This document shows positions 1 to 22,744 of a stretch of DNA of 64,000 nt, piece by piece. Source of the DNA: Ferruginibacter sp. Lineage in GTDB: Bacteria; Bacteroidota; Bacteroidia; Chitinophagales; Chitinophagaceae. The position numbers and the translations under genes were made by a program. Position 1 is the first letter of the stretch. The number at the start of each line of letters is the position of its first letter. Below the pieces are notes generated by a model. The model searched no databases and had not been told where the DNA came from. It saw only the letters and a program-made list of their open reading frames with translations. The stretch spans positions 64,716 to 128,715 of the forward strand of contig JAGOAX010000010.1 in NCBI GenBank assembly GCA_017983695.1. Reading direction: 5' to 3'.

Positions 1-129
1 GATTTGTTTGATCAATATGTTATTATCCGCCGCTGGGACGATCTTGCAAAAAAAACAGAACAACCATTACCCGATTTGTCGCATTATAAACAACTGATAA
101 TTGAGCATCTTTCATTGCAGTATAATTAA
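1..129 (+). CDS. phnZ: 3' end of HD-domain phosphonate dioxygenase, PhnZ-like (partial; not in ORF track)
   Basis: Frame 1 reads DLFDQYVIIRRWDDLAKKTEQPLPDLSHYKQLIIEHLSLQYN*; RRWDDxAK...P.L.HY matches the PhnZ C-terminus; sits directly upstream of a phosphonatase-like gene. Confidence 0.7.
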   Translation, partial: DLFDQYVIIRRWDDLAKKTEQPLPDLSHYKQLIIEHLSLQYN

Positions 130-144
130 ATAAAAAAATAAGGT

Positions 145-813
145 ATGATAAAAATGGTTGTATTTGATATGGCCGGCACCACTGTGCATGAAAACAACGT
201 GGTGTACAAAACTTTGCAAAAAGTCATTAACGAAGACGGGTATAATTTTTCATTAGCACAAGTACTTGCAGAAGGCGCTGGTAAAGAAAAACTGCAAGCG
301 ATAAAAGATATTATTGCAATGCAAAACATTGCACCGGATGATGCTATTGCAAATAAAATATACGGCTTATTTGTGGATGAACTGGCCACAGCATATGATA
401 GTTTTGAATTAAAACCACAACCTGGTGCCGAAGAAACTTTTCAATCTTTAAGGGATAGAAATATTTTGGCAGTATTAAATACCGGTTATAATGAAAAGAC
501 CGCCGTAAACATTTTAGAAAAATTACGTTGGGAAACCGGGAAGCAAATTGACGGGTTGATTACGGCAAGTGATGTACAAAATAACCGTCCTAACCCTGAT
601 ATGATTATGCTGGCTATGCAGAGGTTTGGGATTGAAAATGCAAGCGAAGTGGTTAAAGTGGGAGATTCTATCATTGATATTGAAGAAGGTAAAAATGCAG
701 GCTGTAGCCTTAGCATTGGCATTACCACCGGCGCACATACTTACGAACAACTGGTATCAGCCAATCCTGATCATATCATTCATCATTTACAAGAATTGTT
801 GCCATTAATTTAA
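145..813 (+). CDS. Phosphonatase-like HAD hydrolase (PhnX-like)
   Basis: FDMAGT motif I as in phosphonatases, cap AGKEK with Lys at the Schiff-base position, RPNPDM, KVGDSIIDIEEG, GITTG. Confidence 0.85.
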   Translation: MIKMVVFDMAGTTVHENNVVYKTLQKVINEDGYNFSLAQVLAEGAGKEKLQAIKDIIAMQNIAPDDAIANKIYGLFVDELATAYDSFELKPQPGAEETFQSLRDRNILAVLNTGYNEKTAVNILEKLRWETGKQIDGLITASDVQNNRPNPDMIMLAMQRFGIENASEVVKVGDSIIDIEEGKNAGCSLSIGITTGAHTYEQLVSANPDHIIHHLQELLPLI

Positions 814-819
814 TGGATC

Positions 820-2133
820 ATGCCAGCCACCATTTCATTAACAGAAAACAATACCAGCCGTGTAAAGCTAAGCAGGCAACCGTTGCTGCTGGTTATTTAT
901 ATTTCTTTATGTGCCTTTGTAATTTACAGTTGCATGTATGGTTTTAGAAAACCTTATACTGCTGCTACATACAATAACATTTTCTTTTTAGGCATTTCTT
1001 ATAAAGTATGTTTGGTAATTGCACAGGTGTTGGGTTATATGTGCAGCAAGTTTTATGGCATCAAATTTATTTCGGGTATGAAGCCAGAGCTCCGCTCTGT
1101 TTACATTGTTTTATTTATAGGTATTGCATGGGCATCGTTATTGCTGTTTGCAATAATTCCGCCGCCATACAATATCATCTGTATGTTTATTAATGGCCTT
1201 CCGCTGGGTATGGTATTTGGTTTGGTATTTGGTTTTTTAGAAGGCAGGAGAACAACAGAATTGATGGGAGCCATTTTAGCTACCAGTTTTATTTTTGCAT
1301 CGGGCCTGGCCAAAACCATTGGCAAATGGTTGATACTTGATTTTAATTTCAGTGATTGGTGGATGCCTTTTACTGCCGGTGCTTTTTTTGTAATCCCCCT
1401 TTGTATTTGTGTAAAGCTATTGCACCAGGCACCGCCGCCCAGTGCAGACGATATTGCACACCGCACCATTCGTAAACCAATGACTGCTGCAGAAAGAAAA
1501 CAATTTATAAAGCAGTTTGGTTTTGCCATTACACCAATCATATTGGCGTATGCAGTATTTACTATCGTAAGGGATTTTGTAGAAGACTTTGCCAACGAGT
1601 TGTGGACAGAAACAGGCTTTCAAAATAATGCAGGTGTATTTGCACAAACAAGTACAACTATTGCATTAATTACACTGGCCATTATTGCCGGTTTCTTTTT
1701 AATAAAAAGTAATTACAAAGCATTCAGGTTAAGTCATTTTTTAATAATGGCCGGAGTATTGTTATCTGCCATATCCACTTTTTGTTTTAGCGCTCATTTT
1801 ATTACACCGTTTACCTGGATGTTGTTTAGCACCACAGGCCTGTACCTGGCATACCTCCCCTTTAATTGTATTTACTTTGAGCGCATGTTAGCCACTTACA
1901 AAATAAATGGCAATATTGGTTTTGTAATGTACATAGCCGATGCATTTGGGTATTTGGGTACTGTAGCTGTTTTGCTGATAAAAGAATTTATACCGATTAA
2001 ATACAGCTGGATAAATTTTTTCAGTTTTCTTTTTTATGCAGCGGCAGCTTTAGGTGTGCTGCTTATCATTATCAGTTTAAGTACACACAGTAAATTATAT
2101 AAAAATTTATGCAACAAAAATCAGCCATCGTAA
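820..2133 (+). CDS. DUF5690 family MFS-like membrane transporter
   Basis: About 12 hydrophobic segments; YSCMYGFRKPY, LEGRRTTE, FASGLAK, RDFVEDF, YIADAFGYLG motifs. Confidence 0.8.
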   Translation: MPATISLTENNTSRVKLSRQPLLLVIYISLCAFVIYSCMYGFRKPYTAATYNNIFFLGISYKVCLVIAQVLGYMCSKFYGIKFISGMKPELRSVYIVLFIGIAWASLLLFAIIPPPYNIICMFINGLPLGMVFGLVFGFLEGRRTTELMGAILATSFIFASGLAKTIGKWLILDFNFSDWWMPFTAGAFFVIPLCICVKLLHQAPPPSADDIAHRTIRKPMTAAERKQFIKQFGFAITPIILAYAVFTIVRDFVEDFANELWTETGFQNNAGVFAQTSTTIALITLAIIAGFFLIKSNYKAFRLSHFLIMAGVLLSAISTFCFSAHFITPFTWMLFSTTGLYLAYLPFNCIYFERMLATYKINGNIGFVMYIADAFGYLGTVAVLLIKEFIPIKYSWINFFSFLFYAAAALGVLLIIISLSTHSKLYKNLCNKNQPS

Positions 2134-3251
2134 TTGGTGCCGGCATTGTTGGCCTTGCCAGTGCAAGAGCTCTTGCACAAAAGGGTTTTAGTGTAAAAGT
2201 ATTCGACCGCCATCCGCAGGCGATGGGTGCATCGATACGGAATTTTGGAATGGTATGGCCCATTGGCCAGCCATCCGGCACTATGTACAACCGTGCCATG
2301 CGCAGCAGAACAATCTGGAAGACCATTGCTAAGGAAGCCAACATCTGGCACGAAGAAACCGGCAGTCTTCACTTAGCATACAATGCAACAGAGTGGCAGG
2401 TATTACAAGAGCTGGAAAATATTTTTAAACAGGAAAAAAGAAATGTTACGCTTTTAGATAAAAATAAAATTGTAACCCTGTATGAACATGTTAACGCTGA
2501 TAATTTAATCGGCGGGTTATACAGTGCTGATGAAATGCTCATAGACCCCAGAGAAGCCATTGCAGCATTGCCTGAATACCTGGAAGAAAAATATGCTGTA
2601 GAATTTTACTGGAACAATTGTGCAAGTTATATTGCTGACCAAACAGTGTATGTTGGTAAAGAAGAATATGAAGCTGATATAATTTTTGTGTGTAGTGGTG
2701 CCGATTTTGAAACACTTTATCCTGAAGAATTTTCAAAACTACCCATAACAAAATGCAAATTACAAATGCTGCGTACCGTTCCCATGCCGGAACGCTATCG
2801 TATTAAAACTGCAATTTGCGGCGGCTTATCTTTATTGCATTACAGCAGTTTTAAAGCTGCGCCTTCGCTACCGATACTGCAAAAAAAGATGGCGGAAGAA
2901 ATGAAGCCGTATCTGGATTTGGGCATACATGTAATGGCTGCACAAAATGGCAAAGGAGAAATTACCATTGGCGATTCGCATGAATACGGATTGTACCTTG
3001 ACCCTTTTGACAGGGCATCCACCAATAAGCTAATTCTGGAGTATTTAAAAAGTTTTTTAAATATCAACAATAATTCCATTGCCGAGACCTGGAATGGTAT
3101 TTATCCCAAGCTAACCAACGGCGATACCGAAATTTTCTTTTCGCCTGACCATGGCGTATATATTTTGAATGGTGTTGGTGGTGCCGGCATGACCTTATCT
3201 TTTGGCCTTGCAGAAGAAGTGGTAGACCAGGTGGTGATGGTGACTGCGTAA
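2109..3251 (+). CDS. TIGR03364-type FAD-dependent oxidoreductase (DAO family, phosphonate-associated)
   Basis: GAGIVG Rossmann motif, GASIRNFGMVWP, GEITIGDSHEY, GVGGAGMTLSFGLAE. Confidence 0.85.
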   Translation: MQQKSAIVIGAGIVGLASARALAQKGFSVKVFDRHPQAMGASIRNFGMVWPIGQPSGTMYNRAMRSRTIWKTIAKEANIWHEETGSLHLAYNATEWQVLQELENIFKQEKRNVTLLDKNKIVTLYEHVNADNLIGGLYSADEMLIDPREAIAALPEYLEEKYAVEFYWNNCASYIADQTVYVGKEEYEADIIFVCSGADFETLYPEEFSKLPITKCKLQMLRTVPMPERYRIKTAICGGLSLLHYSSFKAAPSLPILQKKMAEEMKPYLDLGIHVMAAQNGKGEITIGDSHEYGLYLDPFDRASTNKLILEYLKSFLNINNNSIAETWNGIYPKLTNGDTEIFFSPDHGVYILNGVGGAGMTLSFGLAEEVVDQVVMVTA

Positions 3252-3364: not shown

Positions 3365-3442
3365 GTAACAATTTGGTAACATTAAGGAAACAATTCATTA
3401 ATGCTGCGATAACATTGCAGTAATCTCAACAGCCTCTCTTTG
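3365..3442 (+). promoter_or_regulatory. Putative Pho-box array (6 x 11-bp period) plus degenerate -7 element
   Basis: gtaaca 3365, gtaaca 3376, gaaaca 3387, ttaatg 3398, ataaca 3409, gtaatc 3420; TTTG at 3439 (19 nt after last unit start). Confidence 0.75.
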
Positions 3443-3446: not shown

Positions 3447-6239
3447 ATGAAAATTACGAACATGAGAAGCTACATCTTTATACTTACGTTTATTAGTTTA
3501 TCGTTTACAGCTCTTGCACAAAAAGGAAAGATAGAAGGAAAAATTACTGACTCAAAAACCGGTAACCCGATAGCTGGTATTTCAGTATTTGTTAAAGAAA
3601 CAGGAAAAGGTATTGCAACAGATCTGGAAGGCCGTTTTTCTTTTACGGTGGAAACGGGAAAGAAATATACTATTACCCTAAGCTCTACTAATTACGAAGC
3701 TAAAGAAATTACTGAGGTAGAAACCGGTGCCGATGGTATTGCACACCTTGATGTTACCTTAATACAAAAAGCTAAAACCGGCGAAGAAGTTATTGTAAAG
3801 AGCAGCACTGCAAAGAAAGAATCGGTAAGTGCCTTAATAGCATTTCAAAAAAACACCAATACAGTAGCTTCAGTTATTTCCGCCGAAGCTATCAGAAGAA
3901 GTCCTGACAGAAACACAGGTGAAGTGTTGAAGCGTTTACCAGGTACCAGCATTCAGGAAGGTAAGTTTTTGGTGGTAAGAGGTTTGGCCGACAGGTACAA
4001 CCAGGCGATGTTAAATGGTATTTTATTAACCAGTACTGAGCCAGACCGCAAAACTTTTTCTTTTGATATTATACCCAGTAATATGGTAGATAATATTGTA
4101 GTAAATAAAGCTTTTGTACCAGAACTTCCCGGGGAGTGGGCTGGTGGTTTAATACAGGTAAATACAAAAGATATTCCTACTAAAAATTTTTTCAATATTC
4201 AATTAAGCAGTGGTTTTAATACACAAACTATTGGTAAAGATTTTTACGAAGATAAAGGTGGCAAAACAGATTGGCTGGGTATAGATGACGGTACCAGAAA
4301 TTTACCTGCTGCATATACTACAAAAAGTGGTTTTGATACAGCAAGTTTTGCAAGTAAAACAGCTATGGGTAAGTCGATGCGTAATGCATGGGCACCCACA
4401 AAAATTGCAGCTCCTTTTAATACTGCTTTTGAATTGAATGGTGGATTTAAAGGAAAAGTATTTGGAAAAACACTGGGGGGCATTTTTGGTGTTACTTACC
4501 GCAAAAACAACAGCATTCAGGATATCGTAAACAGGCATAATAATTTTGAAAACGGAAGAGAGTTTAAGAATACTGACATTGATTTTAATGACGAACGCTA
4601 TTTACAAAGCACTGCAGTAAGTGCAATAGCCAGTTTATCGATGCAGCTGAACAATCTCAATAAAATTTCTTTAAAAAGTATTATAAGCACCAATACAGCT
4701 AACAGTACCATTTTAAGAAATGGTTTAGATGATACCCGTAACGAAGACATTATGGCTTATGAATATAGTTTTAAGCAAAATACTTTTTTTACTACACAAC
4801 TTACCGGCCAGCACAGCTTAACCAAGAGTTTAAAACTCAATTGGAATGGTGCTTTTACTATTTTAGATGGTTATTCTCCAGATCAAAGAAGGTTACAGTA
4901 TTCCAGAACTACCGGAACCGCAGATCCTTACAGAGCTATTGTATCCAATAACTTATCGCAGGCAAGTGGCAGCAGAATATATCAGATTTTAAACGATTAT
5001 ATCTACACCACCGGTGGTGATTTAACCTATACTTTAAAAAACAAGCAGACTATTAAAGGTGGTTACATGTTCCAGGTAAGAGACAGGTTGTTTGATGCAA
5101 AACTGTTTGCCAATTATTTGCCGGTTGATAATGATGCATTGAAACTATTGACACCTGATAAAATATTTGCACCCGAAAATTTTGGAAACGGCACCGATAA
5201 CAAGATAGCATTTGATGCCATCAAAGGAAGTACTTTCCGCTATTTGGCCAACACCATTTTAAATGCAGGCTACCTGCAAATGGATAACGAATTGTTTGAT
5301 AAACTGCGTTTGGTATGGGGTGTAAGAGTAGAACATTTTGACCAGTTGGTAGGTAGTGTAAAAAAATGGGATCCCCGTCACTCTTACTCAAAAGTAACTG
5401 ACTTTTTACCCGGCTTAAATGCTACCTACAAAATAAATCCAAAAACGAATCTCCGTTTGTCTGCTTCGCAAACAGTAATAAGGCCGGAGTTGAGAGAGCT
5501 TAGTGCACTTAACCTGTACGATTTTGAATTGAATGCTTCGGTTAATGGTAATCCAAACTTAAAACGCACCAAGATTACCAATTTAGATTTACGTTACGAA
5601 ATTTATAACCGCCCCGGAGAAGTATTTAGTGCGGGTGTATTTTACAAATATTTTAAAGATCCTATTGAGCAATTATTTAATGAAGGTATTGGTGGTGCAA
5701 GTACATTTAATTTTCAAAATGCTGAAAAAGCATATTCTGCAGGTATTGAATTAGAAGTAAGAAAAAAACTGGATTTTATTGCTGAGAAGATGGAAAACTT
5801 TACGCTGCAATCAAATATTGCTGTAATAAAAAGTAAGGTAACAGATGCGAAATTTAATTTAGACAGAAGCTTGCAAGGACAATCTAACTACCTGCTAAAT
5901 CTGGGGCTTTTATATGATGTGCCAAAACACGGTATAAACGCCACGGTATTATTTAATTTAATTGGCGAAAGAATATTTTTAGTAGGCGATAAAGCAGCCG
6001 GTGCATCATCTCCGGATGTGTACGAAGCACCACGCCCTTTATTGGATTTTCAATTAGCTAAAAAAGTAGCTAAAGGTAAGGCCGAAATAAAATTGAATGT
6101 ATCCGACATCATAAACAGGGTACAATATTTTTATCAAAACGCCAACAGCTCCAACGCTTTTCAAAAAAATACCGATGCCTACCGTTTTACCAGGAGGTTT
6201 GGTACAGCATTTAACGTAAGTATTAATTACTCTTTATAA
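3447..6239 (+). CDS. TonB-dependent receptor with N-terminal carboxypeptidase-regulatory-like domain (start may be 3462)
   Basis: Signal peptide, plug motifs (VVRGLADRYN, FSFDIIP, GEWAGGLI), barrel motifs (NPNLKRTKITNLDLRYE), C-terminal INYSL. Confidence 0.92.
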   Translation: MKITNMRSYIFILTFISLSFTALAQKGKIEGKITDSKTGNPIAGISVFVKETGKGIATDLEGRFSFTVETGKKYTITLSSTNYEAKEITEVETGADGIAHLDVTLIQKAKTGEEVIVKSSTAKKESVSALIAFQKNTNTVASVISAEAIRRSPDRNTGEVLKRLPGTSIQEGKFLVVRGLADRYNQAMLNGILLTSTEPDRKTFSFDIIPSNMVDNIVVNKAFVPELPGEWAGGLIQVNTKDIPTKNFFNIQLSSGFNTQTIGKDFYEDKGGKTDWLGIDDGTRNLPAAYTTKSGFDTASFASKTAMGKSMRNAWAPTKIAAPFNTAFELNGGFKGKVFGKTLGGIFGVTYRKNNSIQDIVNRHNNFENGREFKNTDIDFNDERYLQSTAVSAIASLSMQLNNLNKISLKSIISTNTANSTILRNGLDDTRNEDIMAYEYSFKQNTFFTTQLTGQHSLTKSLKLNWNGAFTILDGYSPDQRRLQYSRTTGTADPYRAIVSNNLSQASGSRIYQILNDYIYTTGGDLTYTLKNKQTIKGGYMFQVRDRLFDAKLFANYLPVDNDALKLLTPDKIFAPENFGNGTDNKIAFDAIKGSTFRYLANTILNAGYLQMDNELFDKLRLVWGVRVEHFDQLVGSVKKWDPRHSYSKVTDFLPGLNATYKINPKTNLRLSASQTVIRPELRELSALNLYDFELNASVNGNPNLKRTKITNLDLRYEIYNRPGEVFSAGVFYKYFKDPIEQLFNEGIGGASTFNFQNAEKAYSAGIELEVRKKLDFIAEKMENFTLQSNIAVIKSKVTDAKFNLDRSLQGQSNYLLNLGLLYDVPKHGINATVLFNLIGERIFLVGDKAAGASSPDVYEAPRPLLDFQLAKKVAKGKAEIKLNVSDIINRVQYFYQNANSSNAFQKNTDAYRFTRRFGTAFNVSINYSL

Positions 6240-7938: not shown

Positions 7939-7966
7939 TGTTAAATTAAGGTTACCAAATTGTTAC
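7939..7966 (-). promoter_or_regulatory. Reverse-oriented Pho-box-like array (3 x 11 bp)
   Basis: tgttaa 7939, ggttac 7950, tgttac 7961 (reverse complements ttaaca, gtaacc, gtaaca). Confidence 0.55.
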
Positions 7967-8058: not shown

Positions 8059-8550
8059 ATGAAATGGGTTAGCGTAAACAATGGTACTTCAAACGAAAAC
8101 TTTGAATTGTGGGAAGCCGATAAAAAATTAGCGGTTATCTCATTTAGCAATACCACACGTATTGCAAGAATTGTAAGCAACTTAGGCAAGCGGCTTTTCT
8201 TTTTTGAGAAAAAAGGATTGCTCACGCCAAAAGCTGTATTTAAAAATGAGTATGGTATAAAAATGGGTAAGCTGGAGCTGGAAAAACCCGGTGCCCAAAA
8301 TGGCTACCTGGAAATTGAAGAAAAAAAATACCGTTATGTTTTTAATGCCAATAATAATGGCGAACTAAATGTATATAACGAAACGATGAGTGAAACACTT
8401 ATTACCTGTAATTTCCCTGCTCCATCAAATTCGGTATCTAAAAATTCGTCTTTTTTAGATACTAAATTATCGAGCCTGTTACTTATACTTTGCTGGTATT
8501 CTTTTCAGCCTAAAAACACACATACCCAGGTAATGGAAGCCATTGCCTGA
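8059..8550 (+). CDS. Hypothetical protein
   Basis: 163-aa ORF with A-rich initiation region, TTTG element at 7990 upstream and terminator downstream. Confidence 0.75.
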   Translation: MKWVSVNNGTSNENFELWEADKKLAVISFSNTTRIARIVSNLGKRLFFFEKKGLLTPKAVFKNEYGIKMGKLELEKPGAQNGYLEIEEKKYRYVFNANNNGELNVYNETMSETLITCNFPAPSNSVSKNSSFLDTKLSSLLLILCWYSFQPKNTHTQVMEAIA

Positions 8551-9044: not shown

Positions 9045-9100
9045 GTAACAATTAAGTAATACTGTGTTTACAGCAGGTTTACATAGCAGGTGTTTCTTTG
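9045..9100 (+). promoter_or_regulatory. Putative Pho-box array (4 x 11 bp) plus degenerate -7 element
   Basis: gtaaca 9045, gtaata 9056, tttaca 9067, tttaca 9078; TTTG at 9097 (19 nt offset). Confidence 0.7.
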
Positions 9101-10871: not shown

Positions 10872-10926
10872 GTAACATTGTCTTAATAGTGGGGTAATAA
10901 TTTAGTAAAACACCGCCGGTAATTTG
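10872..10926 (+). promoter_or_regulatory. Putative Pho-box array (4 x 11 bp) plus degenerate -7 element
   Basis: gtaaca 10872, ttaata 10883, gtaata 10894, gtaaaa 10905; TTTG at 10923 (18 nt offset). Confidence 0.7.
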
Positions 10927-12017: not shown

Positions 12018-12024
12018 CTGCAAT

Positions 12025-16160: not shown

Positions 16161-17017
16161 CAGTTGCGCATTAAATTAAATTCCTCCACCATGTTATCAA
16201 ATAAGGTACTGTTATCCAATTCTTCCTCTTCAATTACAGACGCTTTCATTTTCAGCATTTCCTGTTCATCAAATTTATATATCTGCCATTCATTGTTTAC
16301 GTATTCCAAAGCTGTTAAATTTTCTATCCAGTCGCCACTGTTTAAATATAAAATTTTTCCATGCCCGTTTACAATTTCTCTCATCTCCGGCTGATGAATA
16401 TGTCCGCACACCACATAATCGTAATTATTGCTTATGCCTATCGCTGCTGCAGTATCTTCAAAATTGTTAATAAATTTTACTGCACTCTTTACACTATTCT
16501 TTATTTTTTTTGAGAGGGAAAGTTTTCCCCTGCCAAATATTTTTTCTGAAATAAAATTTGCCACCCGGTTAATTAAAATCAGGGTATCATACCCAACAGC
16601 TCCCAATTTAGCCAGCCATTTACTATGTTGCATGGTTACATCAAATACGTCACCATGAAAAAACCAGGCTTTTTTTCCATCATCCAAATCAAGCACCACC
16701 TTGTTTACAATTCGTAACGATCCCATTTTAAACCCTGCAAACTTCCGCAGCATTTCATCGTGGTTGCCGGTAACATAATACAGTTTTACCCCTTTGCTCA
16801 TCCAGCCCATAATATGCTTCACCACTTTCATGTGGCTTTTAGGCCAGTACCGTTTGCTGAACTGCCAAATATCAACAATATCACCATTTAAGACTACAAT
16901 TTTTGGTTTGATAGTTATAAGATAGTGTAATAGCTCTTTGGCATGGCAACCATAAGTACCAAGGTGAACATCGGAGAGCACCAGAATATCCAGTTTTCTT
17001 TTTTTAGTTGCCGCCAT
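16160..17017 (-). CDS. PlcP/LpxH-like metallophosphoesterase (likely phospholipase C by context)
   Basis: SDVHLG, GDIVDIW, GNHD, HGDVFD, GHIH, NSGDW; coupled to a glycosyltransferase. Confidence 0.85.
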   Translation of the reverse strand: MAATKKRKLDILVLSDVHLGTYGCHAKELLHYLITIKPKIVVLNGDIVDIWQFSKRYWPKSHMKVVKHIMGWMSKGVKLYYVTGNHDEMLRKFAGFKMGSLRIVNKVVLDLDDGKKAWFFHGDVFDVTMQHSKWLAKLGAVGYDTLILINRVANFISEKIFGRGKLSLSKKIKNSVKSAVKFINNFEDTAAAIGISNNYDYVVCGHIHQPEMREIVNGHGKILYLNSGDWIENLTALEYVNNEWQIYKFDEQEMLKMKASVIEEEELDNSTLFDNMVEEFNLMRN

Positions 17018-17176: not shown

Positions 17177-17215
17177 TCTTACCTGAATGTTACGCTAACA
17201 TTAAGTAAGTGTTAA
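17177..17215 (-). promoter_or_regulatory. Putative Pho-box array facing the plcP-like operon
   Basis: Reverse units ttaaca (17210), ttaatg (17199), gtaaca (17188), gtaaga (17177), 11-bp period. Confidence 0.65.
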
Positions 17216-17238: not shown

Positions 17239-17294
17239 TTAATGATTTCGCAATACTGGCTTAACACAGGCTTAATAATGCAAAGGCAATTTTG
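17239..17294 (+). promoter_or_regulatory. Putative Pho-box array plus degenerate -7 element facing the choice-of-anchor I gene
   Basis: ttaatg 17239, gcaata 17250, ttaaca 17261, ttaata 17272; TTTG at 17291 (19 nt offset). Confidence 0.65.
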
Positions 17295-17374
17295 CTCCTT
17301 GATTCTATTAGCAGCAATTGTGGATTTTAAAGTATTGCCACAGTATGTATCATCATTACAGAAATATTAAACAC

Positions 17375-18883
17375 ATGAAAAAAGCAGCAACAGCATTATT
17401 ATTGGTAACCTTATTTATGGCATGTAAAAAATCGGATGATGCCCCTGCAGAAGTAATTGTTAATGAAGACCCGGCAACTTATAAAGAAATTGCCTCCCTT
17501 AACCTGGGTGGTTTAGGCTCCGCAGAGATCACCACTTTTGATCCGCAAACCAAACGCCTTTTTGCTGTAAACAATGGAACACTAAATAAAATAGATGTCA
17601 TTGATATTGCCAATCCGGCTGTAATCAGTGTAATACATTCTATAAGTCTTGCTACTTATGGCGGCTATGTAAACAGTGTTGATGTTAGTAATGGAAAACT
17701 GGCCGCTGCCATTGAAGCTTCTAACAAACAAAACCCGGGAAAAGTAGTGGTATTTAATACATCTACTTATGCAGAAGAAAAAGTAATAACCGTTGGTGCA
17801 TTACCGGATATGGTAGTTTACAGCCCCGATGGTAAGTACATACTTACTGCTAATGAAGCAGAACCAGATGCAACCTATACCAACGATCCGGAAGGCAGTG
17901 TATCTATAATAAATGTGACTGACAATTACAGCGTAACTACGTTGAACTTTGCCTCTTTCGCATCTCAATTAACCGCTTTAACAACCAAAGGCTTTCGTGT
18001 GTTTGGTCCCGGAAAAGATATTATTAAAGATGTGGAGCCGGAGTACATTACTGTTTCTTCCGATTCTAAAACAGCATGGGTAACATTGCAAGAGAATAAT
18101 GCTATTGCTGTAATTGATCTTACCACAAAAGCAATTACCAAAATATTTCCATTAGGATTTAAAGATTATAATACTGCTGCCAACGCAATAGACCCTAGTG
18201 ATAAAGAAGGCGGCATAAACTTTACTCCTTGGAAAGCTTTTGGTACTTATATGCCTGATGCAATAACTTCTACCAATTATAATGGCACTACGTATTTATT
18301 TACAGCCAACGAAGGAGATGCAAGAGAATACACCGGCTTTAGCGAAATAAAAAGAATAAAGGATATTACATTAGATGCTACTGCTTTTCCTACTGCAGCT
18401 ACGCTTAAATTAGATGCACAACTAGGCAGATTGAATATTACGACCACTTTAGGCGATACTGATAATGATGGTGACTTTGATGCCTTATACAGTTTTGGTG
18501 CAAGATCATTTAGCGTGTGGAATGGCAGCACCGGCGAGTTAGTATTTGACAGCAAGAACGAACTTGATGTAAAAGCAAAAGAACTGGGTGTATATGATGA
18601 TAACCGCAGCGATGATAAAGGTGCTGAACCGGAAGCTATTACTTTAGGCAAAGTAGGTACAAAAACAATTGCTTTTGTAGGTATGGAAAGAGTAGATGCA
18701 GTGGTTGTGTATGATGTAACCAATCCAACAGCACCTGTATTTATAAAAATGTTTGCAACAGGTGATGCACCCGAAGGTGTGCTGTTTATTCCTTCATCTA
18801 AAAGCCCCATTGGCCAAAGCCTGGTAGTTGTAAGCAGCGAAAATGATGGTGTGATAAAAATATATAGGGCAGATAAATTATAA
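17375..18883 (+). CDS. Choice-of-anchor I family lipoprotein (alkaline-phosphatase-associated beta-propeller)
   Basis: Lipobox FMA-C at MKKAA start; VGALPDM, ANEAEP, EPEYI, ANEGD, GARSFS, RSDDKGAEPE motifs. Confidence 0.85.
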   Translation: MKKAATALLLVTLFMACKKSDDAPAEVIVNEDPATYKEIASLNLGGLGSAEITTFDPQTKRLFAVNNGTLNKIDVIDIANPAVISVIHSISLATYGGYVNSVDVSNGKLAAAIEASNKQNPGKVVVFNTSTYAEEKVITVGALPDMVVYSPDGKYILTANEAEPDATYTNDPEGSVSIINVTDNYSVTTLNFASFASQLTALTTKGFRVFGPGKDIIKDVEPEYITVSSDSKTAWVTLQENNAIAVIDLTTKAITKIFPLGFKDYNTAANAIDPSDKEGGINFTPWKAFGTYMPDAITSTNYNGTTYLFTANEGDAREYTGFSEIKRIKDITLDATAFPTAATLKLDAQLGRLNITTTLGDTDNDGDFDALYSFGARSFSVWNGSTGELVFDSKNELDVKAKELGVYDDNRSDDKGAEPEAITLGKVGTKTIAFVGMERVDAVVVYDVTNPTAPVFIKMFATGDAPEGVLFIPSSKSPIGQSLVVVSSENDGVIKIYRADKL

Positions 18884-18899: not shown

Positions 18900-19298
18900 A
18901 TCGCAAGGGTAGGTAGTGTGTCGCAGTTGGATTATTTTCTATCCAATGCTAATCAAACTTTAGTAACCTTATCTTCCGCATCAATTACACCAATGACCTG
19001 TGTAATTAAGCCCTATGCCAAAGTGGAATTTATTAAAGCCGAAGTAGAGTTTCTATCCAATAATCAAACTGCCGTAAAATATTATGCCTTATTCTTTGTA
19101 GATTACCAGGCATGGTTTGAATACAGGCGTACCGGAATGCCGGTATTACCAATTAATGCCGGTATGGTGGGTAAACAAATGCCTACCCGTTTTAAATACC
19201 CGATTGCAGTAAGAACTAATAACCCGGTAAATTATCAACTTGCCGTAACTTCAATGGGCGGCGACGATAACACTACCAAAGTGTGGTGGGAAAAATAA
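18900..19298 (+). pseudogene. C-terminal remnant of a SusD/RagB-like lipoprotein
   Basis: YAKVEFIKAE, YYALFFVDYQAWFEYRRTGMP, RFKYP, MGGDDNTTKVWWEK are SusD C-terminal motifs; no signal peptide, in-frame stop at 18885, no susC upstream. Confidence 0.8.
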
Positions 19299-19320: not shown

Positions 19321-20811
19321 ATGGAAAGAAGAAGTTTTCTTAAAAATTTTAGTTTAGCGGGTGCTTTACTTACAGTACCGCCAGCATTGGCCGAAGCTGC
19401 AACTTTTGCAGCACCTGTAAAAAAAGATATCGGCAATATAACACTCAAAGGAAAAGTACAAAGTAAAGGAACTGGTATAGCAGGTATTGCGGTAACCGAT
19501 GGCAACAACATAACACTCACCGATAAAAATGGTAACTACGAATTACTGAGCAACAATACTGCAGAGTTTGTTTACATCAGTATGCCGTCGGGCTACCAAT
19601 TTACCAACGATAAAGGTATTGCTAAATTTTATGTGCCGGTTAATGCCAGCAGCAATATTTTTAAAGCCGATTTTGAATTAGAAAAATTAGCGGTTGATGA
19701 TAAACAGCATTGCTTTGTGGTATGGGCCGATACACAAATGATATCTGAAAAAGATGTGGAGTTGCTGAAATCACAATCGGTGCCCGACTTACAACAATTG
19801 GTAGCTGCTTATCCAAAGCAAACTCTTTTTCATGGTATTGGTTGCGGCGATTTGGTATGGGATAAGTTTGAATTATTTGAAGGTTATAAACAGGCCATCG
19901 ATAGCACGGGTGTAACTTTCTTTAATGTAATTGGTAACCACGATATGGATCTGGATGCCCGTACCGATGAATTATCTGCCAAAACATTTAAAAAACAATT
20001 TGGCCCCACCTACTATTCTTTTAACAGGGGCGATATACATTACGTGGTGCTGGATGATGTATTTTTTATTGGCACTGCCAAGCAATACATTGGCTACATT
20101 ACCGAAAACCAGTTGCAATGGTTAGAGCAGGATCTGCTGCAGGTAAAACCTGGCAGCACTGTGGTAGTAAGTTTACATATACCTACCAACACCGGTGCTG
20201 CAAGAAGAAATAAAAAAGACGCAGAACTGGGATCAGTAGTTGCTAACAGGAAACAGTTGTATAAAATATTATCGCCGTACAAAGTGCATATCATGAGTGG
20301 CCACACTCATTTTAATGATACCTGGGAAGAAAACAATATTATGGAACATAACCATGGTACTGTTTGCGGCGCCTGGTGGACCGGCCCTGTTTGTGGCGAT
20401 GGTACGCCAAACGGTTACGGTGTGTATGAAGTAAACGGCAGTGAAATAAAATGGTATTACAAATCAACCGGCTTACCTAAAACAAATCAATTAAGATTGT
20501 ATGGTAAGGGTAAATCAAAAAATAACCCTGATGAGATTGTAGCCAATGTATGGAACTGGGATGTGAAATGGAAAGTTGAATGGTTTGAAGATGGTGTAGA
20601 AAAAGGTGGCATGGAACAACGTGCAGCATTAGATCCATTGGCAGTGGAATTATATGCTGGCCCGGAACTTCCGAAGAAACATAAGTTTGTAGAACCTACA
20701 CTGGCTGATCATATTTTCTTTGCAACCCCATCGGCCAATGCCAAACAAATTGAAGTAAGAGCAACTGATCGTTTTGGAAATATATTCAGCGAAAAACTAA
20801 GCATTGCATAG
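19321..20811 (+). CDS. Tat-exported calcineurin-like phosphoesterase
   Basis: MERRSFLK twin-arginine signal; DTQ, GCGDL, GNHD, SLHIP, SGHTH, CGAWW motifs. Confidence 0.9.
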   Translation: MERRSFLKNFSLAGALLTVPPALAEAATFAAPVKKDIGNITLKGKVQSKGTGIAGIAVTDGNNITLTDKNGNYELLSNNTAEFVYISMPSGYQFTNDKGIAKFYVPVNASSNIFKADFELEKLAVDDKQHCFVVWADTQMISEKDVELLKSQSVPDLQQLVAAYPKQTLFHGIGCGDLVWDKFELFEGYKQAIDSTGVTFFNVIGNHDMDLDARTDELSAKTFKKQFGPTYYSFNRGDIHYVVLDDVFFIGTAKQYIGYITENQLQWLEQDLLQVKPGSTVVVSLHIPTNTGAARRNKKDAELGSVVANRKQLYKILSPYKVHIMSGHTHFNDTWEENNIMEHNHGTVCGAWWTGPVCGDGTPNGYGVYEVNGSEIKWYYKSTGLPKTNQLRLYGKGKSKNNPDEIVANVWNWDVKWKVEWFEDGVEKGGMEQRAALDPLAVELYAGPELPKKHKFVEPTLADHIFFATPSANAKQIEVRATDRFGNIFSEKLSIA

Positions 20812-20826: not shown

Positions 20827-20860
20827 AGCTTTACCTGTACAAGTTATAGGTAAAGCTTTT
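20827..20860. terminator. Bidirectional terminator
   Basis: agctttacctgta...tataggtaaagct stem between convergent genes. Confidence 0.75.
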
Positions 20861-21908
20861 AATCTTTCTTTTTAGGTAATGTAAAACCAAAGGTGGTACC
20901 TACATCAATTTTACTGCGTACATGAATGGTCTGACCATGGGCTTCCACAATATGTTTGCAAATAGAAAGACCTAAACCACTACCCCCAACTTTCCTGCTT
21001 CTTGCTAAATCGGTACGATAAAACCTTTCAAATATCCTGGGTAAATGTTCTTCTGCAATACCGGAGCCATCATCACTGATCTCTATTAATATTCTACGAC
21101 CATCTATCCGGTAAAAGCTACTTTCTATTGTGCCATTTTGCTTACCATACTTGATCGCATTGTCTACAAGATTTATAAAAACCTGCCGTATTTTTTCTTT
21201 ATCGGCATAAACAGTTAATGGTTGTTCGCAGCCTTTTTTAATAATGCATTTAATTTCTTTTTCTTCTGCTTTAATAGCTAAGGTTTCATACACTTCCTTC
21301 AGCAGGTCCTGTATCACAAAATTTTGCTGGTACAGCAATTGTTCGCCACTTTCTAATTTTGATATTTCATCAAGGTCATCTACTAAATTCACCAGTCGGT
21401 CAACATTACGGGAAGTGCTGTTTAAAAATTTTTTATTTACATCAGGATTTTCCAAAGCGCCATTTAATAAAGTATCTACATAACCCTGTATGGCAAAAAT
21501 CGGTGTCTTTAATTCATGACTCAGATTTTGCAAAAATTCTTTGCGGTAAGTTTCGTTTTGCTGCAGTAATTCTATTTCTTCTTTACGCTGTATGGCCCAT
21601 TTTTCCACGTCTTCCCTTACTTCATCAATGCCTTTCTGGGGTAAAATATTTTTATAGTAAAACTCTTCTCTTTTGCTGGCCTTGGTTTGATAAATGAGTT
21701 TGTAAATGAGTTTTATTTTGCGGTAAATAAAAGTTTGCAGTGCGTAAGATATTAATGCATAGCTGCCCAAAAACATGGCTACAAATGAAACCAACGGTAT
21801 CCACCAAACCGGTTTAAAAATAAAAACCACAATTGCCACCGGCACCGATAAACCCAATGCCGTTAATGCAGATAATTGTTGTGGTGAAAGATTTTTTTGT
21901 GAAGGCAT
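20859..21908 (-). CDS. phoR: Sensor histidine kinase, PhoR-like
   Basis: Two N-terminal TMs, SHELKTP H-box, NLVDNAIKYG, DDGSGI, GGSGLGL; located in a phosphorus cluster. Confidence 0.8.
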   Translation of the reverse strand: MPSQKNLSPQQLSALTALGLSVPVAIVVFIFKPVWWIPLVSFVAMFLGSYALISYALQTFIYRKIKLIYKLIYQTKASKREEFYYKNILPQKGIDEVREDVEKWAIQRKEEIELLQQNETYRKEFLQNLSHELKTPIFAIQGYVDTLLNGALENPDVNKKFLNSTSRNVDRLVNLVDDLDEISKLESGEQLLYQQNFVIQDLLKEVYETLAIKAEEKEIKCIIKKGCEQPLTVYADKEKIRQVFINLVDNAIKYGKQNGTIESSFYRIDGRRILIEISDDGSGIAEEHLPRIFERFYRTDLARSRKVGGSGLGLSICKHIVEAHGQTIHVRSKIDVGTTFGFTLPKKKD

Positions 21909-21987
21909 ACACCTATCCCCTAAAGGAAAAATTTATTTTAGCGAAGATATTAAGATAACATCAATAACTCCCTTTCGGGGATGCGGT

Positions 21988-22662
21988 CTATATTTCAAAC
22001 TTATACCCTACGCCTTTTACAGTGCTGATGCAATCAAGGTCTAATTTTTGGCGAATTTTGCGGATGTGTACATCAATGGTACGGTCGCCAACTATAACTT
22101 CAGTGCCCCAAATAGTGTTCAATATTTCGTTGCGTAAAAAAACTTTGCCGGGTTTGCCAGCCAGTAAAGCCAGTAATTCAAATTCTTTTCTGGCCAGTAC
22201 AATATCGTTTCCTTTAAAATTGATCATATATTTCTCCCTGTCAATTTCAAGATCACCCACTTTTAACACTTTGGGTCCATCATTACTAAACCTTCTGAAC
22301 AAGGCATTTACCTTACTCACTAAAACTTTAGGGCTTATAGGTTTTGTCAGGTAATCATCGGCCCCACTTTCCAACCCTTTCACTTCGGTGCCTTCATCAC
22401 TCAATGCAGTTAAAAAAATAATAAGGGTATTTTTAAAAGCGGGCAGGCTGCGTAAAGTATTACAAACTTCCATCCCGGTTTTACCCGGCATCATAATATC
22501 CAGTATTATCAAATCCGGAAGGGTTCGTTTTGCTTTTTCGATGGCTTCGTTGCCGTTCTTTGCAGTAATCACTTCAAAACCTTCTCCCTGCAAATTGTAT
22601 TGGATGATCTCCAGGATATCGGGCTCATCATCGGCAATTAATATTTTTTTAACAGTACTCAT
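21988..22662 (-). CDS. phoP: OmpR-family response regulator, PhoP/PhoB-like
   Basis: DDEPDI, LDIMMP, GADDYLTKP, DRTIDVHIRKIR, VKGVGYKF; start moved to ATG 22662 because the -7 box overlaps 22680. Confidence 0.82.
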   Translation of the reverse strand: MSTVKKILIADDEPDILEIIQYNLQGEGFEVITAKNGNEAIEKAKRTLPDLIILDIMMPGKTGMEVCNTLRSLPAFKNTLIIFLTALSDEGTEVKGLESGADDYLTKPISPKVLVSKVNALFRRFSNDGPKVLKVGDLEIDREKYMINFKGNDIVLARKEFELLALLAGKPGKVFLRNEILNTIWGTEVIVGDRTIDVHIRKIRQKLDLDCISTVKGVGYKFEI

Positions 22663-22675
22663 AAGTAAAACGTTG

Positions 22676-22685
22676 TGCAAAAGTA
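22676..22685 (-). promoter_or_regulatory. Housekeeping -7 element of phoPR
   Basis: TACTTTTGCA on the minus strand, a perfect TAnnTTTG. Confidence 0.7.
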
Positions 22686-22727
22686 GTCTTAATCAATATT
22701 CAATAAATCAGTTTAAAGGCTTTGCTG

Positions 22728-22744
22728 TATTATCAAATTGTTAA
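22728..22744 (-). promoter_or_regulatory. Possible two-unit Pho box upstream of phoP (autoregulation)
   Basis: Reverse units ttaaca (22739) and ataata (22728), 11 bp apart; only two units. Confidence 0.3.

What the first reader, a model, noticed from the sequence alone, without database searches (positions are those of the whole stretch)
1..22744. 22-kb phosphorus-starvation cluster with its own PhoPR-like system
Seen: most genes here encode phosphonate catabolism, phosphatases/phosphoesterases, an outer-membrane receptor or lipid-remodelling enzymes; the block ends in a PhoP/PhoR-like pair; shared repeat arrays sit upstream of its operons. Known: PhoBR/PhoPR regulons are usually scattered. 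Inference: a co-located regulon that scavenges organic P and also spares P from the envelope. No pstSCAB/phoU lies in the window.
Basis: partly seen in the sequence, partly recalled or inferred. Interest (0 to 1): 0.8.

Follow-up and report, generated by a model that had tools for sequence, protein, structure and literature searches.

The report
Phosphate-starvation supercluster around phoBR
A Ferruginibacter-like wastewater bacterium that has lost the usual high-affinity phosphate pump keeps nearly all its recognisable phosphate-starvation genes, their PhoBR regulator and a shared regulator-binding motif in one stretch of about 40 kb; this is a large, clear example of a cluster type already described in Flavobacterium.

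Summary
The phosphorus genes run from about 17 kb upstream of the window to the regulator at 22680, about 40 kb in all.

- **Content:** the genome's only Pit phosphate transporter with a DUF47 partner, a porin-like barrel, SusCD, two PF04185 phosphoesterases, a PhnZ/PhnX-like phosphonate operon, a TonB receptor with a beta-helix-like lipoprotein, PAP2-GtrA-GT-C, PlcP-GT-GH1, further phosphoesterases, and HK-RR.
- **Regulator:** the HK-RR pair is not an extra system. It is the genome's only PhoBR ortholog. In another family of the same order, its ortholog follows pstSCAB-phoU.
- **What the genome lacks:** PstSCAB, PhoU, Na/Pi cotransporter, PhoA, PhoD and PhoX.
- **Repeat arrays:** the "repeat arrays" are 11-bp-phased [G/T]TAA[C/T]A units. 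Nine of 12 strict genome-wide hits lie in the cluster.
- **Conservation:** across about 100 related genomes (24 congeners, 80 Chitinophagaceae loci) the arrays sit upstream of orthologous operon-leading genes. Internal and flanking genes have none.
- **Recurrence:** near-colinear superclusters recur in other Chitinophagaceae.

The concept is already published: the Flavobacterium johnsoniae PUSIV/pus4 phoBR cluster, Pst-less Bacteroidetes, and PlcP lipid remodelling. No expression data exist for this organism. Verdict: a confirmed new member of a known kind, of moderate interest.

The parts
1..129 (+). 3' end of the PhnZ-like HD-domain phosphonate oxygenase gene. It starts upstream of the window at L011:19542.
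   Evidence: TIGR03276 Phn-HD scores 212.1 bits, just under the 214.6 cut-off. HD domain.
145..813 (+). PhnX-like phosphonatase-family HAD hydrolase
   Evidence: TIGR03351 scores 226.7 bits, over the 218.9 cut-off.
820..2133 (+). DUF5690 membrane protein, a candidate aminophosphonate importer
   Evidence: PF18943, E = 4e-153. The function is inferred from the operon context.
2109..3251 (+). TIGR03364 FAD-dependent oxidoreductase (aminophosphonate oxidation)
   Evidence: 421 bits against a cut-off of 285.
3365..3392 (+). Pho-box-like array GTAACA-N5-GTAACA-N5-GAAACA upstream of the TonB receptor
   Evidence: Arrays are present upstream of 72% (<=1 mismatch) or 86% (<=2 mismatches) of 74 orthologs.
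3447..6239 (+). TonB-dependent receptor with CarbopepD_reg, Plug and OMP_b-brl_3 domains
   Evidence: This is the same Pfam set as low-Pi-induced Fjoh_0545 in PMC8115612.
6270..7709 (+). Surface lipoprotein partner of the receptor, probably a beta-helix (FII/ElpS-like)
   Evidence: Lipobox. AF2 model with pLDDT 67 whose only Foldseek hits, all weak, are right-handed beta-helices. Paired with the receptor in 75 of 80 loci.
7939..7966 (-). Reversed three-unit array about 95 bp upstream of the 163-aa gene
   Evidence: The array is reversed in all 18 orthologous promoters that carry one.
8059..8550 (+). Conserved 163-aa protein of unknown function. It is a member of the array-defined regulon.
   Evidence: 81% of 21 orthologs carry an array.
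8628..9032 (+). 134-aa protein of unknown function
   Evidence: no family match. An ortholog is present in 7 of 80 loci.
9045..9072 (+). Array upstream of the AP-superfamily-like gene
   Evidence: 43% of 14 orthologs carry an array at <=2 mismatches.
9115..10188 (+). Alkaline-phosphatase-superfamily-like protein (weak match to 'Metalloenzyme')
   Evidence: PF01676, E = 1.8e-6. No solved relative found.
10872..10910 (+). Four-unit array upstream of the PAP2 operon
   Evidence: 64% (<=1 mismatch) or 91% (<=2 mismatches) of 11 orthologs carry an array.
10924..13572 (+). PAP2 phosphatase, GtrA-like protein and PMT_2 (GT-C, ArnT-like) glycosyltransferase operon. Inferred role: removing phosphate from an envelope lipid and adding a sugar in its place.
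   Evidence: The target, lipid A or another lipid, was not shown.
13707..17017 (-). PlcP-like metallophosphoesterase (16160-17017), MJ1255/VC2487-family glycosyltransferase (15072-16160) and GH1 beta-glucosidase (13707-15071) operon. Role: replacing phospholipid with glycolipid.
   Evidence: The PlcP-GT pairing is known from PMC4796936. PlcP and a GT are induced by low Pi in F. johnsoniae.
17188..17215 (-). Array upstream of the PlcP operon
   Evidence: Arrays also sit upstream of PlcP in G023 and G006. Only 13% of 23 more distant orthologs have one.
17250..17277 (+). Array upstream of the choice-of-anchor I gene
17318..18883 (+). Choice-of-anchor I beta-propeller lipoprotein. A phosphoesterase role is inferred, not shown.
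18918..19298 (+). SusD-like C-terminal fragment, the remnant of a truncated SusCD pair
   Evidence: only profile positions 372-415 of 415 are matched..
19321..20811 (+). Calcineurin-like phosphoesterase with MetallophosN/C domains
20859..21908 (-). PhoR ortholog: two TM helices, a short linker, DHp and CA domains, and no detectable PAS domain
   Evidence: The ortholog in G028 is 54% identical and sits in pstSCAB-phoU-RR-HK.
21988..22680 (-). PhoB ortholog (OmpR-family response regulator)
   Evidence: It is the best PhoB match in the genome. The syntenic ortholog lies next to phoU in G028.
22728..22744 (-). Weak two-unit array (TTAACA-N5-ATAATA) in the RR / 742-aa-gene intergenic region. Possible autoregulation.
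   Evidence: 21-36% of orthologous intergenic regions have an array at <=2 mismatches, against 3% background.

Best explanation
This is the PhoBR-controlled phosphate-starvation (Pho) regulon of a Ferruginibacter-like Chitinophagaceae bacterium. It is consolidated into one locus of about 40 kb (contig C33:47.7-87.4 kb; window 1-22680 plus 17 kb upstream).

**How it most likely works.** Steps 1, 2, 4 and 5 are inferred from homology and from the conserved cis-elements. Only step 3, the genome-wide absences, was shown directly.

1. Under Pi limitation the membrane kinase (PhoR ortholog) phosphorylates the OmpR-family regulator (PhoB ortholog).
2. The regulator binds 11-bp-phased [G/T]TAA[C/T]A direct repeats that replace the -33 element. 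The last repeat lies about 12 nt upstream of a TTTG -7-like box. From there it activates about 8-10 transcription units.
3. These units import Pi through a porin-like barrel and the genome's only Pit transporter. This lineage has lost PstSCAB and PhoU.
4. They capture and hydrolyse organic P at the cell surface and in the periplasm. The parts are SusCD, two TonB receptors, a beta-helix-like lipoprotein, PF04185 and calcineurin-type phosphoesterases, and a choice-of-anchor I propeller. They also catabolise aminophosphonates through PhnZ-like, PhnX-like, DUF5690 and FAD-oxidase proteins.
5. They lower the cell's P quota by exchanging phospholipids for glycolipids (PlcP + GT), and probably by removing phosphate from another envelope lipid and adding a sugar (PAP2-GtrA-GT-C).
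For: **Gene content:**

**Regulator identity**
- It is the best PhoB match in the genome.
- The RR and HK orthologs (58% and 54% identical) in G028 are encoded directly after pstS-pstC-pstA-pstB-phoU, with DUF47-Pit alongside.
- That syntenic PhoB also scores below the curated cut-offs. The sub-threshold score here is therefore a feature of the clade.

**Absences across the whole genome (99.6% complete)**
- No PhoU, PstB or canonical PstS.
- No Na/Pi cotransporter.
- No PhoD, PhoX or PhoA.
- The single PHO4/Pit gene lies in the cluster.

**The motif**
- 9 of 12 strict arrays genome-wide fall in the cluster. Shuffles give 4-8 in total.
- The outside hits are intragenic or wrongly oriented.
- The outside two-unit candidates precede PurK, PFK, NagA, PepT and a GT4.

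**Independent support from other genomes**
- A blind pattern scan of 24 congeners lands next to orthologs of the same genes.
- In 80 Chitinophagaceae loci, arrays (<=2 mismatches) precede TBDR930 (86%), the 163-aa gene (86%), PAP2 (91%) and the porin-like gene (68%).
- Operon-internal genes and the flanking epimerase and ABC genes have none. Background is 3%.

**Recurrence:** near-colinear superclusters occur in L141, L144, L081 and L082.

**Experimental precedent:** homologous parts (TBDT with the same Pfam set, FII lipoprotein, GT, PlcP, PhoB) are strongly induced by Pi depletion in F. johnsoniae (PMC8115612).

**Transcription in situ:** metatranscriptome contigs cover parts of the receptor, lipoprotein, PlcP operon and choice-of-anchor I genes. 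This is weak evidence.
Against: - There are no expression, binding or mutant data for this uncultured organism. Pi-responsiveness rests on homology, synteny and the motif.
- The motif definition was derived from the cluster itself, so the in-genome enrichment is partly circular. The cross-genome footprint is the independent test.
- The RR and HK score below NCBIfam's PhoB/PhoR equivalog cut-offs.
- The HK lacks a detectable PAS domain.
- Arrays upstream of the PlcP, AP-like and SusC operons are much less conserved in distant relatives: 13%, 43% and 10%.
- No array directly precedes the phosphonate genes. Their control depends on their being part of a long SusC-to-FAD-oxidase operon. That operon is inferred only from intergenic gaps of at most about 15 bp.
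- Several members have no assignable function: the 163-aa and 134-aa proteins, the AP-like protein and the choice-of-anchor I protein.
Confidence: 0.8

Rival explanations
1. The HK-RR pair senses something other than phosphate, such as divalent cations, antimicrobial peptides or envelope stress, as PhoPQ and PmrAB do. On this reading the locus is an envelope-remodelling and nutrient-uptake regulon in which the P-related enzymes are incidental.
For: PAP2 phosphatases and ArnT-like GT-C enzymes are classic members of PhoPQ/PmrAB regulons (general knowledge). The RR and HK miss the PhoB/PhoR equivalog cut-offs, and the HK has no PAS domain.
Against: - The orthologous pair in G028 is the last two genes of pstSCAB-phoU-RR-HK.
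- PhoB and PhoR are the top-scoring families.
- The array-marked genes are overwhelmingly P-acquisition genes, including the sole Pit transporter.
- F. johnsoniae homologs respond to Pi, with Fe and N limitation run as controls.
Confidence: 0.06
2. The genes are neighbours but are not one regulon. On this reading the phased arrays are a generic promoter or UP-like element, or the site of a different regulator, and only part of the cluster answers to the adjacent HK-RR.
For: - No binding data exist.
- Array conservation is patchy for the PlcP, AP-like and SusC promoters.
- One array class works in reversed orientation, which is unusual for PhoB-type activation.
Against: - The arrays are essentially confined to this locus in a 4.5-Mb genome, so they are not a generic promoter element.
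- 11-bp-phased direct repeats are the binding mode of the OmpR/PhoB family (established knowledge).
- Arrays track the same orthologs even where gene order is scrambled, and those orthologs are often re-linked to HK-RR.
Confidence: 0.1
3. The 40-kb juxtaposition is a mis-assembly or binning artefact of the metagenome-assembled genome.
For: The genome is a MAG from wastewater.
Against: - The same gene order, from the phosphoesterase through the phosphonate genes, receptor, PAP2 operon and PlcP operon to the HK, occurs on single contigs of other assemblies (L141, L144; compact forms L081, L082, L074, L077, L111).
- Several independent DNA runs hold 79-99% of the sampled words of 3300-9300.
- GC content is uniform at 0.35-0.40.
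Confidence: 0.02

Closest known systems
Flavobacterium johnsoniae PUSIV / pus4 'PhoBR operon' (Fjoh_0541-0549) and the other Pus loci (Lidbury et al. 2021, PMC8115612; bioRxiv 10.64898/2026.09.03.749221)
   Same: - phoBR sits next to a TonB-dependent transporter with the same Pfam set (Plug, CarbopepD_reg_2, OMP_b-brl_3).
- It has a non-SusD lipoprotein partner (FII, pectin-lyase-fold), a glycosyltransferase for lipid remodelling and a porin.
- The organism lacks PstSABC.
- SusCD-type 'PusCD' pairs sit with phosphoesterases and phosphonate genes.
   Different: - Here all modules are fused into one locus of about 40 kb, rather than four loci plus orphans (PlcP is an orphan in F. johnsoniae).
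- The locus also holds the only Pit transporter with DUF47 and a PAP2-GtrA-GT-C operon.
- The family is different (Chitinophagaceae).
- Induction by low Pi is not shown here.
Canonical PhoBR-PstSCAB-PhoU Pho regulon and Pho box of E. coli
   Same: - An OmpR-family RR and a two-TM histidine kinase.
- Direct repeats with 11-bp periodicity overlapping the upstream promoter element.
- A regulon of Pi uptake, phosphoesterases and phosphonate use.
   Different: - No PstSCAB or PhoU anywhere in the genome.
- No PAS domain detected in the kinase.
- The repeat unit is [G/T]TAA[C/T]A rather than CTGTCAT.
- The regulon is physically consolidated rather than dispersed.
- One promoter class carries the array in reversed orientation.
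phoBR-linked, strain-variable phosphate-acquisition gene regions of Prochlorococcus (Martiny et al. 2006, cited in PMC2151091) and phosphate islands of HIMB59 (PMC10734472)
   Same: P-acquisition genes are grouped with or near phoBR. Gene content varies between close relatives, as the module order does in this genus.
   Different: - Different phyla and different gene sets; those organisms keep pstSCAB.
- Here the layout is widely conserved in the family rather than being a hypervariable island.
- I saw no mobile-element genes in the calls made.
PlcP-Agt lipid remodelling module (Sebastian et al. 2016, PMC4796936)
   Same: An LpxH-like metallophosphoesterase with intact DxH / GD / GNHD / GHxH motifs is directly coupled to a glycosyltransferase. 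The module is expected to be Pho-regulated.
   Different: The glycosyltransferase belongs to the MJ1255/VC2487 family, and the operon carries a third gene, a GH1 beta-glucosidase. Activity is untested.
ElpS-type phosphate-starvation lipoprotein of Caulobacter crescentus (as referred to in PMC8115612)
   Same: A low-Pi-associated surface lipoprotein encoded next to a TonB-dependent receptor.
   Different: Homology was not tested here: no Pfam hit. The model gives only weak matches to the beta-helix fold.

Membership tests
PhoB/PhoR two-component system | OmpR-family RR (receiver plus winged helix) and a membrane HK with HisKA and HATPase_c domains | tested here: met
   Response_reg + Trans_reg_C, and HisKA + HATPase_c; two N-terminal TM helices with a loop of about 3 residues, as in E. 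coli PhoR.
PhoB/PhoR two-component system | Score above the curated equivalog cut-offs (TIGR02154, NF053854, TIGR02966, NF053855) | tested here: not met
   RR 222 bits against 296, and 202 against 270. HK 230 against 334, and 185 against 500. The PhoB encoded next to phoU in G028 also fails (219 against 270), so the cut-offs do not discriminate in this order.
PhoB/PhoR two-component system | Genetic linkage to pstSCAB-phoU | tested here: inconclusive
   Absent from this genome. Present for the ortholog in G028 as pstS-C-A-B-phoU-RR-HK. PhoU is missing in 75 of 151 genomes of the order and in 11 of 13 of the family.
PhoB/PhoR two-component system | PAS domain in PhoR between the membrane anchor and the DHp domain | tested here: not met
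   only about 60 residues lie between TM2 and the H-box. Profiles that contain a PAS domain match from their DHp part onward.
PhoB/PhoR two-component system | Direct-repeat Pho boxes with 11-bp phase upstream of P-acquisition genes | tested here: met
PhoB/PhoR two-component system | Activation by Pi limitation | not testable with these tools
   The organism is uncultured and no Pi-contrast RNA data exist.
Bacteroidota Pus4/PUSIV-type phoBR cluster | TBDT (Plug + CarbopepD_reg + OMP_b-brl_3) with a non-SusD surface lipoprotein, next to phoBR | tested here: met
   against the Fjoh_0545 domains. Receptor-lipoprotein pairing in 75 of 80 loci, with the HK within 10 kb in 35 of 80.
Bacteroidota Pus4/PUSIV-type phoBR cluster | The lipoprotein has a pectin-lyase-like beta-helix fold (FII/ElpS-like) | tested here: inconclusive
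   AF2 model with pLDDT 67 and pTM 0.73. All top Foldseek hits are beta-helix proteins, but E >= 0.04 and TM <= 0.3.
PlcP-glycosyltransferase lipid remodelling | LpxH-like metallophosphoesterase with intact metal-binding motifs, adjacent to a glycosyltransferase | tested here: met
   the motifs DVH, GD, GNHDE and GHIH are present, and there is a 1-nt overlap with the GT gene.
PlcP-glycosyltransferase lipid remodelling | Phospholipase C activity and glycolipid accumulation under low Pi | not testable with these tools
   Needs lipidomics.
Aminophosphonate catabolism (PhnZ / PhnX-like / TIGR03364 module) | Matches to the family models over their cut-offs | tested here: met
   TIGR03351 scores 226.7 against 218.9, and TIGR03364 scores 421 against 285. 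Phn-HD scores 212.1 against 214.6, marginally under. No PhnY-type dioxygenase or PhnW was seen in the cluster.
Lipid A phosphatase + ArnT-like modification (LpxE/LpxF + GT-C) | Specific assignment of the PAP2 and GT-C proteins to lipid A enzymes | tested here: not met
   The PAP2 protein's best NCBIfam hits are undecaprenyl-diphosphatases far below cut-off (59 bits against 250). The PMT_2 protein has no NCBIfam hit. The lipid A target remains an inference.

The most novel reading that the evidence does not exclude
The locus is a complete, self-sufficient Pho system that works without Pst or PhoU. This reading has three parts.

1. Essentially the whole cis-defined regulon, the only Pi importer, the sensor and the regulator sit in one module.
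2. A PAS-less PhoR reads phosphate status by a route other than PstB/PhoU. That route could be the co-conserved Pit-DUF47 (PhoU-like) pair encoded at the other end of the cluster, or an intracellular signal.
3. The Pho-box-driven PAP2-GtrA-GT-C operon removes phosphate from lipid A, or from another outer-membrane lipid, and replaces it with a sugar as a phosphorus-sparing response.

The last part would be a new branch of the bacterial Pho response.
Probability: 0.2. Interest if true: 0.7.

Novelty: new member of a known kind. Interest (0 to 1): 0.4.

Why it matters
Chitinophagaceae are abundant in soil, freshwater and activated sludge, where phosphorus turnover matters for wastewater P removal and rhizosphere P supply. 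This locus offers four things.

1. **A sequence-level Pho box for the family.** It is supported by a footprint across about 100 genomes and can be used to predict Pho regulons in MAGs.
2. **A compact parts list.** It shows how a bacterium without Pst, PhoU, PhoA, PhoD or PhoX may cope with low phosphate.
3. **Unknowns to characterise.** A few conserved array-marked genes have no known function: the 163-aa protein, the beta-helix-like lipoprotein, the choice-of-anchor I propeller and the AP-like protein.
4. **A testable lead.** An envelope PAP2 / GT-C operon may belong to the phosphate-starvation response.

The general concept, phoBR-anchored P-utilisation clusters in Pst-less Bacteroidota, is already published. 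The value is therefore in extension and resource rather than in a new principle.

Tried and rejected
- **Rfam search:** a scan of the window plus the upstream 20 kb found no family.
- **Solved-structure search by sequence:** searches for the porin-like, choice-of-anchor I and AP-like proteins gave nothing useful.
- **First synteny sample, reading rejected:** ten genomes with +/-40 kb around the RR suggested that the aggregation was specific to this strain. I rejected this after the pattern scan and the 80-locus survey showed recurrent, near-colinear superclusters.
- **Reversed array at 7939-7966, reading rejected:** I first took it for the promoter of a minus-strand sRNA. In every relative it sits about 95 bp upstream of the 163-aa gene.
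- **Hits outside the cluster:** the three-unit and two-unit array hits are intragenic, wrongly oriented, or upstream of housekeeping genes. I treated them as chance.
- **Metatranscriptome contigs:** these show only that related genes are transcribed somewhere, not that they are co-induced.
- **Literature:** paper searches found no published Pho box for Bacteroidota and nothing on choice-of-anchor I phosphatases. Martiny et al. 2006 is not held.
- **Pit-DUF47 as the sensor partner:** S. aureus PitR (DUF47) did not interact with PhoR or with transporters in two-hybrid tests (PMC11705898). That route therefore stays speculative.

Full report
**What is in the interval**

On the plus strand, in order:
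- the end of a PhnZ-like HD oxygenase gene (TIGR03276, 212 bits against a cut-off of 214.6);
- a PhnX-like HAD (TIGR03351, over cut-off);
- DUF5690;
- a TIGR03364 FAD oxidoreductase;
- a TonB receptor (Plug, CarbopepD_reg, OMP_b-brl_3) with a 479-aa lipoprotein;
- two small unknown genes;
- a weak alkaline-phosphatase-superfamily protein;
- PAP2-GtrA-PMT_2.

On the minus strand lies an operon of an LpxH/PlcP-like metallophosphoesterase, an MJ1255/VC2487-family glycosyltransferase and a GH1 beta-glucosidase. After it come a choice-of-anchor I propeller, a 126-aa SusD C-terminal remnant and a MetallophosN/C phosphoesterase. The interval ends with a histidine kinase and an OmpR-family regulator, whose best family matches are PhoR and PhoB. 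About 17 of 22 genes have a phosphorus-related prediction.

**The cluster is larger than the finding**

The window is C33:64716-128715 of a 4.48-Mb genome that is 99.6% complete. The 20 kb upstream (L011) continue the theme:
- a PHO4/Pit transporter with a DUF47 (PhoU_div) partner, on the minus strand;
- a divergently transcribed 441-aa outer-membrane protein;
- a tightly packed run of SusC, SusD, two PF04185 phosphoesterases with beta-propellers, a 702-aa TonB receptor and the HD oxygenase, which runs into the window.

The 441-aa protein has a signal peptide and a C-terminal Phe. Its AF2 model has low confidence (pLDDT 55) but is a barrel of 16-18 strands, and its best Foldseek matches are Omp32, OmpF and OmpU porins.

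Gaps from SusC to the FAD oxidoreductase are at most about 15 bp. This suggests one operon of about 16 kb. The left border is an epimerase gene. The right border is a 742-aa unknown gene followed by an ABC exporter. The whole cluster is about 40 kb.

**The regulator is the organism's PhoBR, not an extra copy**

- The RR is the top PhoB match in the genome.
- Both proteins fall below NCBIfam's equivalog cut-offs.
- In G028, a genome of another family in the same order, the orthologs (58% and 54% identity, the single best hit) are the last genes of pstS-pstC-pstA-pstB-phoU-RR-HK, with DUF47-Pit divergent alongside.
- That syntenic PhoB also misses the cut-offs.
- The kinase has two TM helices separated by about 3 residues, a linker of about 60 residues, and DHp and CA domains. 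No PAS domain is detectable.

**What the genome lacks**

- No PhoU domain.
- No PstB over cut-off.
- One PBP_like_2 protein, located elsewhere.
- No Na/Pi cotransporter.
- A single Pit gene, the one in the cluster.
- No PhoD, PhoX or PhoA.

PhoU is missing from 75 of 151 genomes of the order and from 11 of 13 of the family. This agrees with the published statement that plant-associated Bacteroidetes lack PstSABC (PMC8115612).

**The repeat arrays**

The intergenic regions carry direct repeats of [G/T]TAA[C/T]A every 11 bp. The last unit lies about 12 nt upstream of a TTTG / TAnnTTTG-like box.

- A strict scan (three units, at most 1 mismatch) of both strands of the genome gives 12 hits. Nine lie in C33:50267-81992. 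Shuffled genomes give 4-8 hits in total, and the reversed-pattern control gives 3.
- With a TTTG requirement, 7 of 13 hits are in the cluster.
- The hits outside the cluster are intragenic or wrongly oriented.
- The two-unit candidates outside the cluster precede PurK, PFK, NagA, PepT and a GT4.

Because the motif was read from the cluster itself, the enrichment within this genome is partly circular. The independent evidence comes from other genomes.

**Comparative evidence**

- A blind pattern scan of 24 congeners, followed by tblastn of the cluster proteins against the contigs that were hit, places the arrays upstream of orthologs of the porin-like gene, the receptor-lipoprotein pair, the 163-aa gene, the AP-like gene, PAP2-GtrA-PMT_2, PlcP-GT-GH1 and choice-of-anchor I. 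This holds whatever the gene order.
- A survey of 80 loci around orthologs of the lipoprotein identifies the organism as Ferruginibacter-like Chitinophagaceae.
- In those loci, the share of genes with an array within 250 bp upstream was as follows:

| Gene | Orthologs | Array at <=1 mismatch | Array at <=2 mismatches | Orientation |
|---|---|---|---|---|
| TonB receptor (TBDR930) | 74 | 72% | 86% | forward |
| 163-aa gene | 21 | 81% | 86% | always reversed |
| PAP2 | 11 | 64% | 91% | forward |
| Porin-like gene | 37 | 43% | 68% | forward |
| AP-like gene | 14 | 21% | 43% | forward |
| PlcP | 23 | 9% | 13% | forward |
| RR / 742-aa-gene intergenic region | 28 / 25 | 4% / 4% | 21% / 36% | mixed |
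| Every operon-internal gene scored on at least 5 orthologs (lipoprotein, GtrA, PMT_2, GH1, GT, HK, SusD, PitA, HD, DUF5690), the epimerase and the ABC exporter | varies | 0% | 0% | n/a |
| Background | n/a | 1.6% | 3.3% | n/a |

**Synteny**

The pairing of RR-HK with the 742-aa gene and the ABC exporter is stable. The other modules vary between genomes:
- phoBR stands alone in G013, G007, G010, G016 and G023;
- Pit-porin-receptor lies next to phoBR in G017 and G019;
- PlcP lies next to phoBR in G006 and G014.

Near-colinear superclusters exist in L141 and L144, running from the phosphoesterase through the phosphonate operon, receptor, PAP2 operon and PlcP operon to the HK. Compact full versions exist in L081, L082, L074, L077, L111 and L127. 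The consolidated layout is therefore recurrent in the family. It is neither unique to this genome nor an assembly artefact.

**Relation to what is known**

Lidbury et al. (PMC8115612) showed that F. johnsoniae induces four 'PUS' clusters under low Pi. One of them, PUSIV, contains phoBR, a TBDT with the same Pfam set as the receptor here, the FII lipoprotein (pectin-lyase fold), OprP and a glycosyltransferase. They also showed induction of an orphan PlcP. A 2026 preprint names these loci pus1-4.

The lipoprotein here models as a beta-helix-like protein, but it has no significant structural match. PlcP with a glycosyltransferase is the established lipid-remodelling module (PMC4796936). phoBR-linked, strain-variable P-gene regions are known in Prochlorococcus (PMC2151091). 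I found no published Pho box for Bacteroidota.

**What remains inferred**

- Induction by low Pi.
- Binding of the RR to the arrays.
- The extent of the long SusC-to-oxidase operon.
- The target of PAP2-GtrA-GT-C. There is no specific match to lipid A enzymes.
- How a PAS-less PhoR senses phosphate without PstB or PhoU.

A role for Pit-DUF47 in sensing is attractive because the pair stays with the cluster in 49 of 80 loci. However, S. aureus PitR showed no interaction with PhoR (PMC11705898). Intracellular signals are an alternative (PMC11389368, title and abstract).

**Verdict**

This is a large, well-marked Chitinophagaceae member of the published class of phoBR-anchored phosphate-utilisation clusters of Pst-less Bacteroidota. 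The new material is:
- a family-wide Pho-box footprint;
- the finding that, in this genome, nearly all recognisable Pho functions and all strict arrays sit in one locus;
- a Pho-box-marked PAP2 / GT-C operon.

Noticed in passing
window 7770-7925 (+): Candidate small RNA. A weak four-unit array (ATAACA..GTAATA) with a CTTGCA box lies at the usual offset. About 95 nt without an ORF follow, then a GC hairpin with a T-run. The array, the box, an internal TTTCTTAAGCAA / ATGCTTG stretch and the terminator are conserved at the same place in G011 and G012. There is no Rfam match.
   Followed up: partly
L011:6926-7150 (C33:51641-51865), upstream of the window: A second orphan promoter-plus-terminator unit. 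Two arrays and a TTTG box are followed by about 135 nt and the hairpin GCAGGGC...GTCCTGC with T7. It lies between the porin-like gene and SusC. A reversed array at L011:7200-7216 sits about 108 bp before the SusC start.
   Followed up: no
window 7939-7966 and the orthologous promoters: The promoter of the 163-aa gene carries its array in reversed orientation, about 95 bp before the start codon, in all 18 genomes that have one. The sequence is almost invariant: GTAACAATTTGGTAAC[A/C]TTAATTTAA[C/T]A. This is a different promoter architecture from the forward arrays.
   Followed up: partly
window 18918-19298: A 126-aa ORF that matches only the last 45-80 residues of SusD-like profiles. It is a remnant of a truncated SusCD pair in front of the MetallophosN/C phosphoesterase, and so a scar of rearrangement inside the cluster.
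   Followed up: partly
window 13707-15071 (-): A cytoplasmic-type GH1 beta-glucosidase (TIGR03356 over cut-off) is the third gene of the PlcP-glycosyltransferase operon. It stays with the operon in at least 9 related loci. It might degrade the glycolipid when phosphate returns, but this is untested.
   Followed up: no
window 10197-10493 (-) and about 10600-10790 (-): Two small minus-strand ORFs interrupt the plus-strand run between the AP-like gene and PAP2. One is a lysine-rich, histone-H1-like 98-aa protein. The other is a small protein of about 60 aa with one TM helix. This was read from the sequence, and neither has a P-related prediction.
   Followed up: no
C33:128419-130124, from window 63704 to about 1.4 kb beyond the window end: The second-best PhoB-like regulator of the genome (187 bits) follows a 331-aa ORF. 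A GTAACA-N5-GTGACA pair lies inside that ORF. This is probably an unrelated OmpR-type system.
   Followed up: no
window 22822-25050 (+): A 742-aa protein with no Pfam or NCBIfam match is divergently transcribed from the RR in nearly all relatives examined. 36% of its upstream regions have an array at <=2 mismatches. It may be a further regulon member of unknown function.
   Followed up: partly
whole genome: PhoA, PhoD and PhoX families are all absent. Phosphoester hydrolysis must therefore rest on the cluster's PF04185, calcineurin-type, AP-like and choice-of-anchor I proteins, or on enzymes not searched for, such as PafA-type enzymes.
   Followed up: partly
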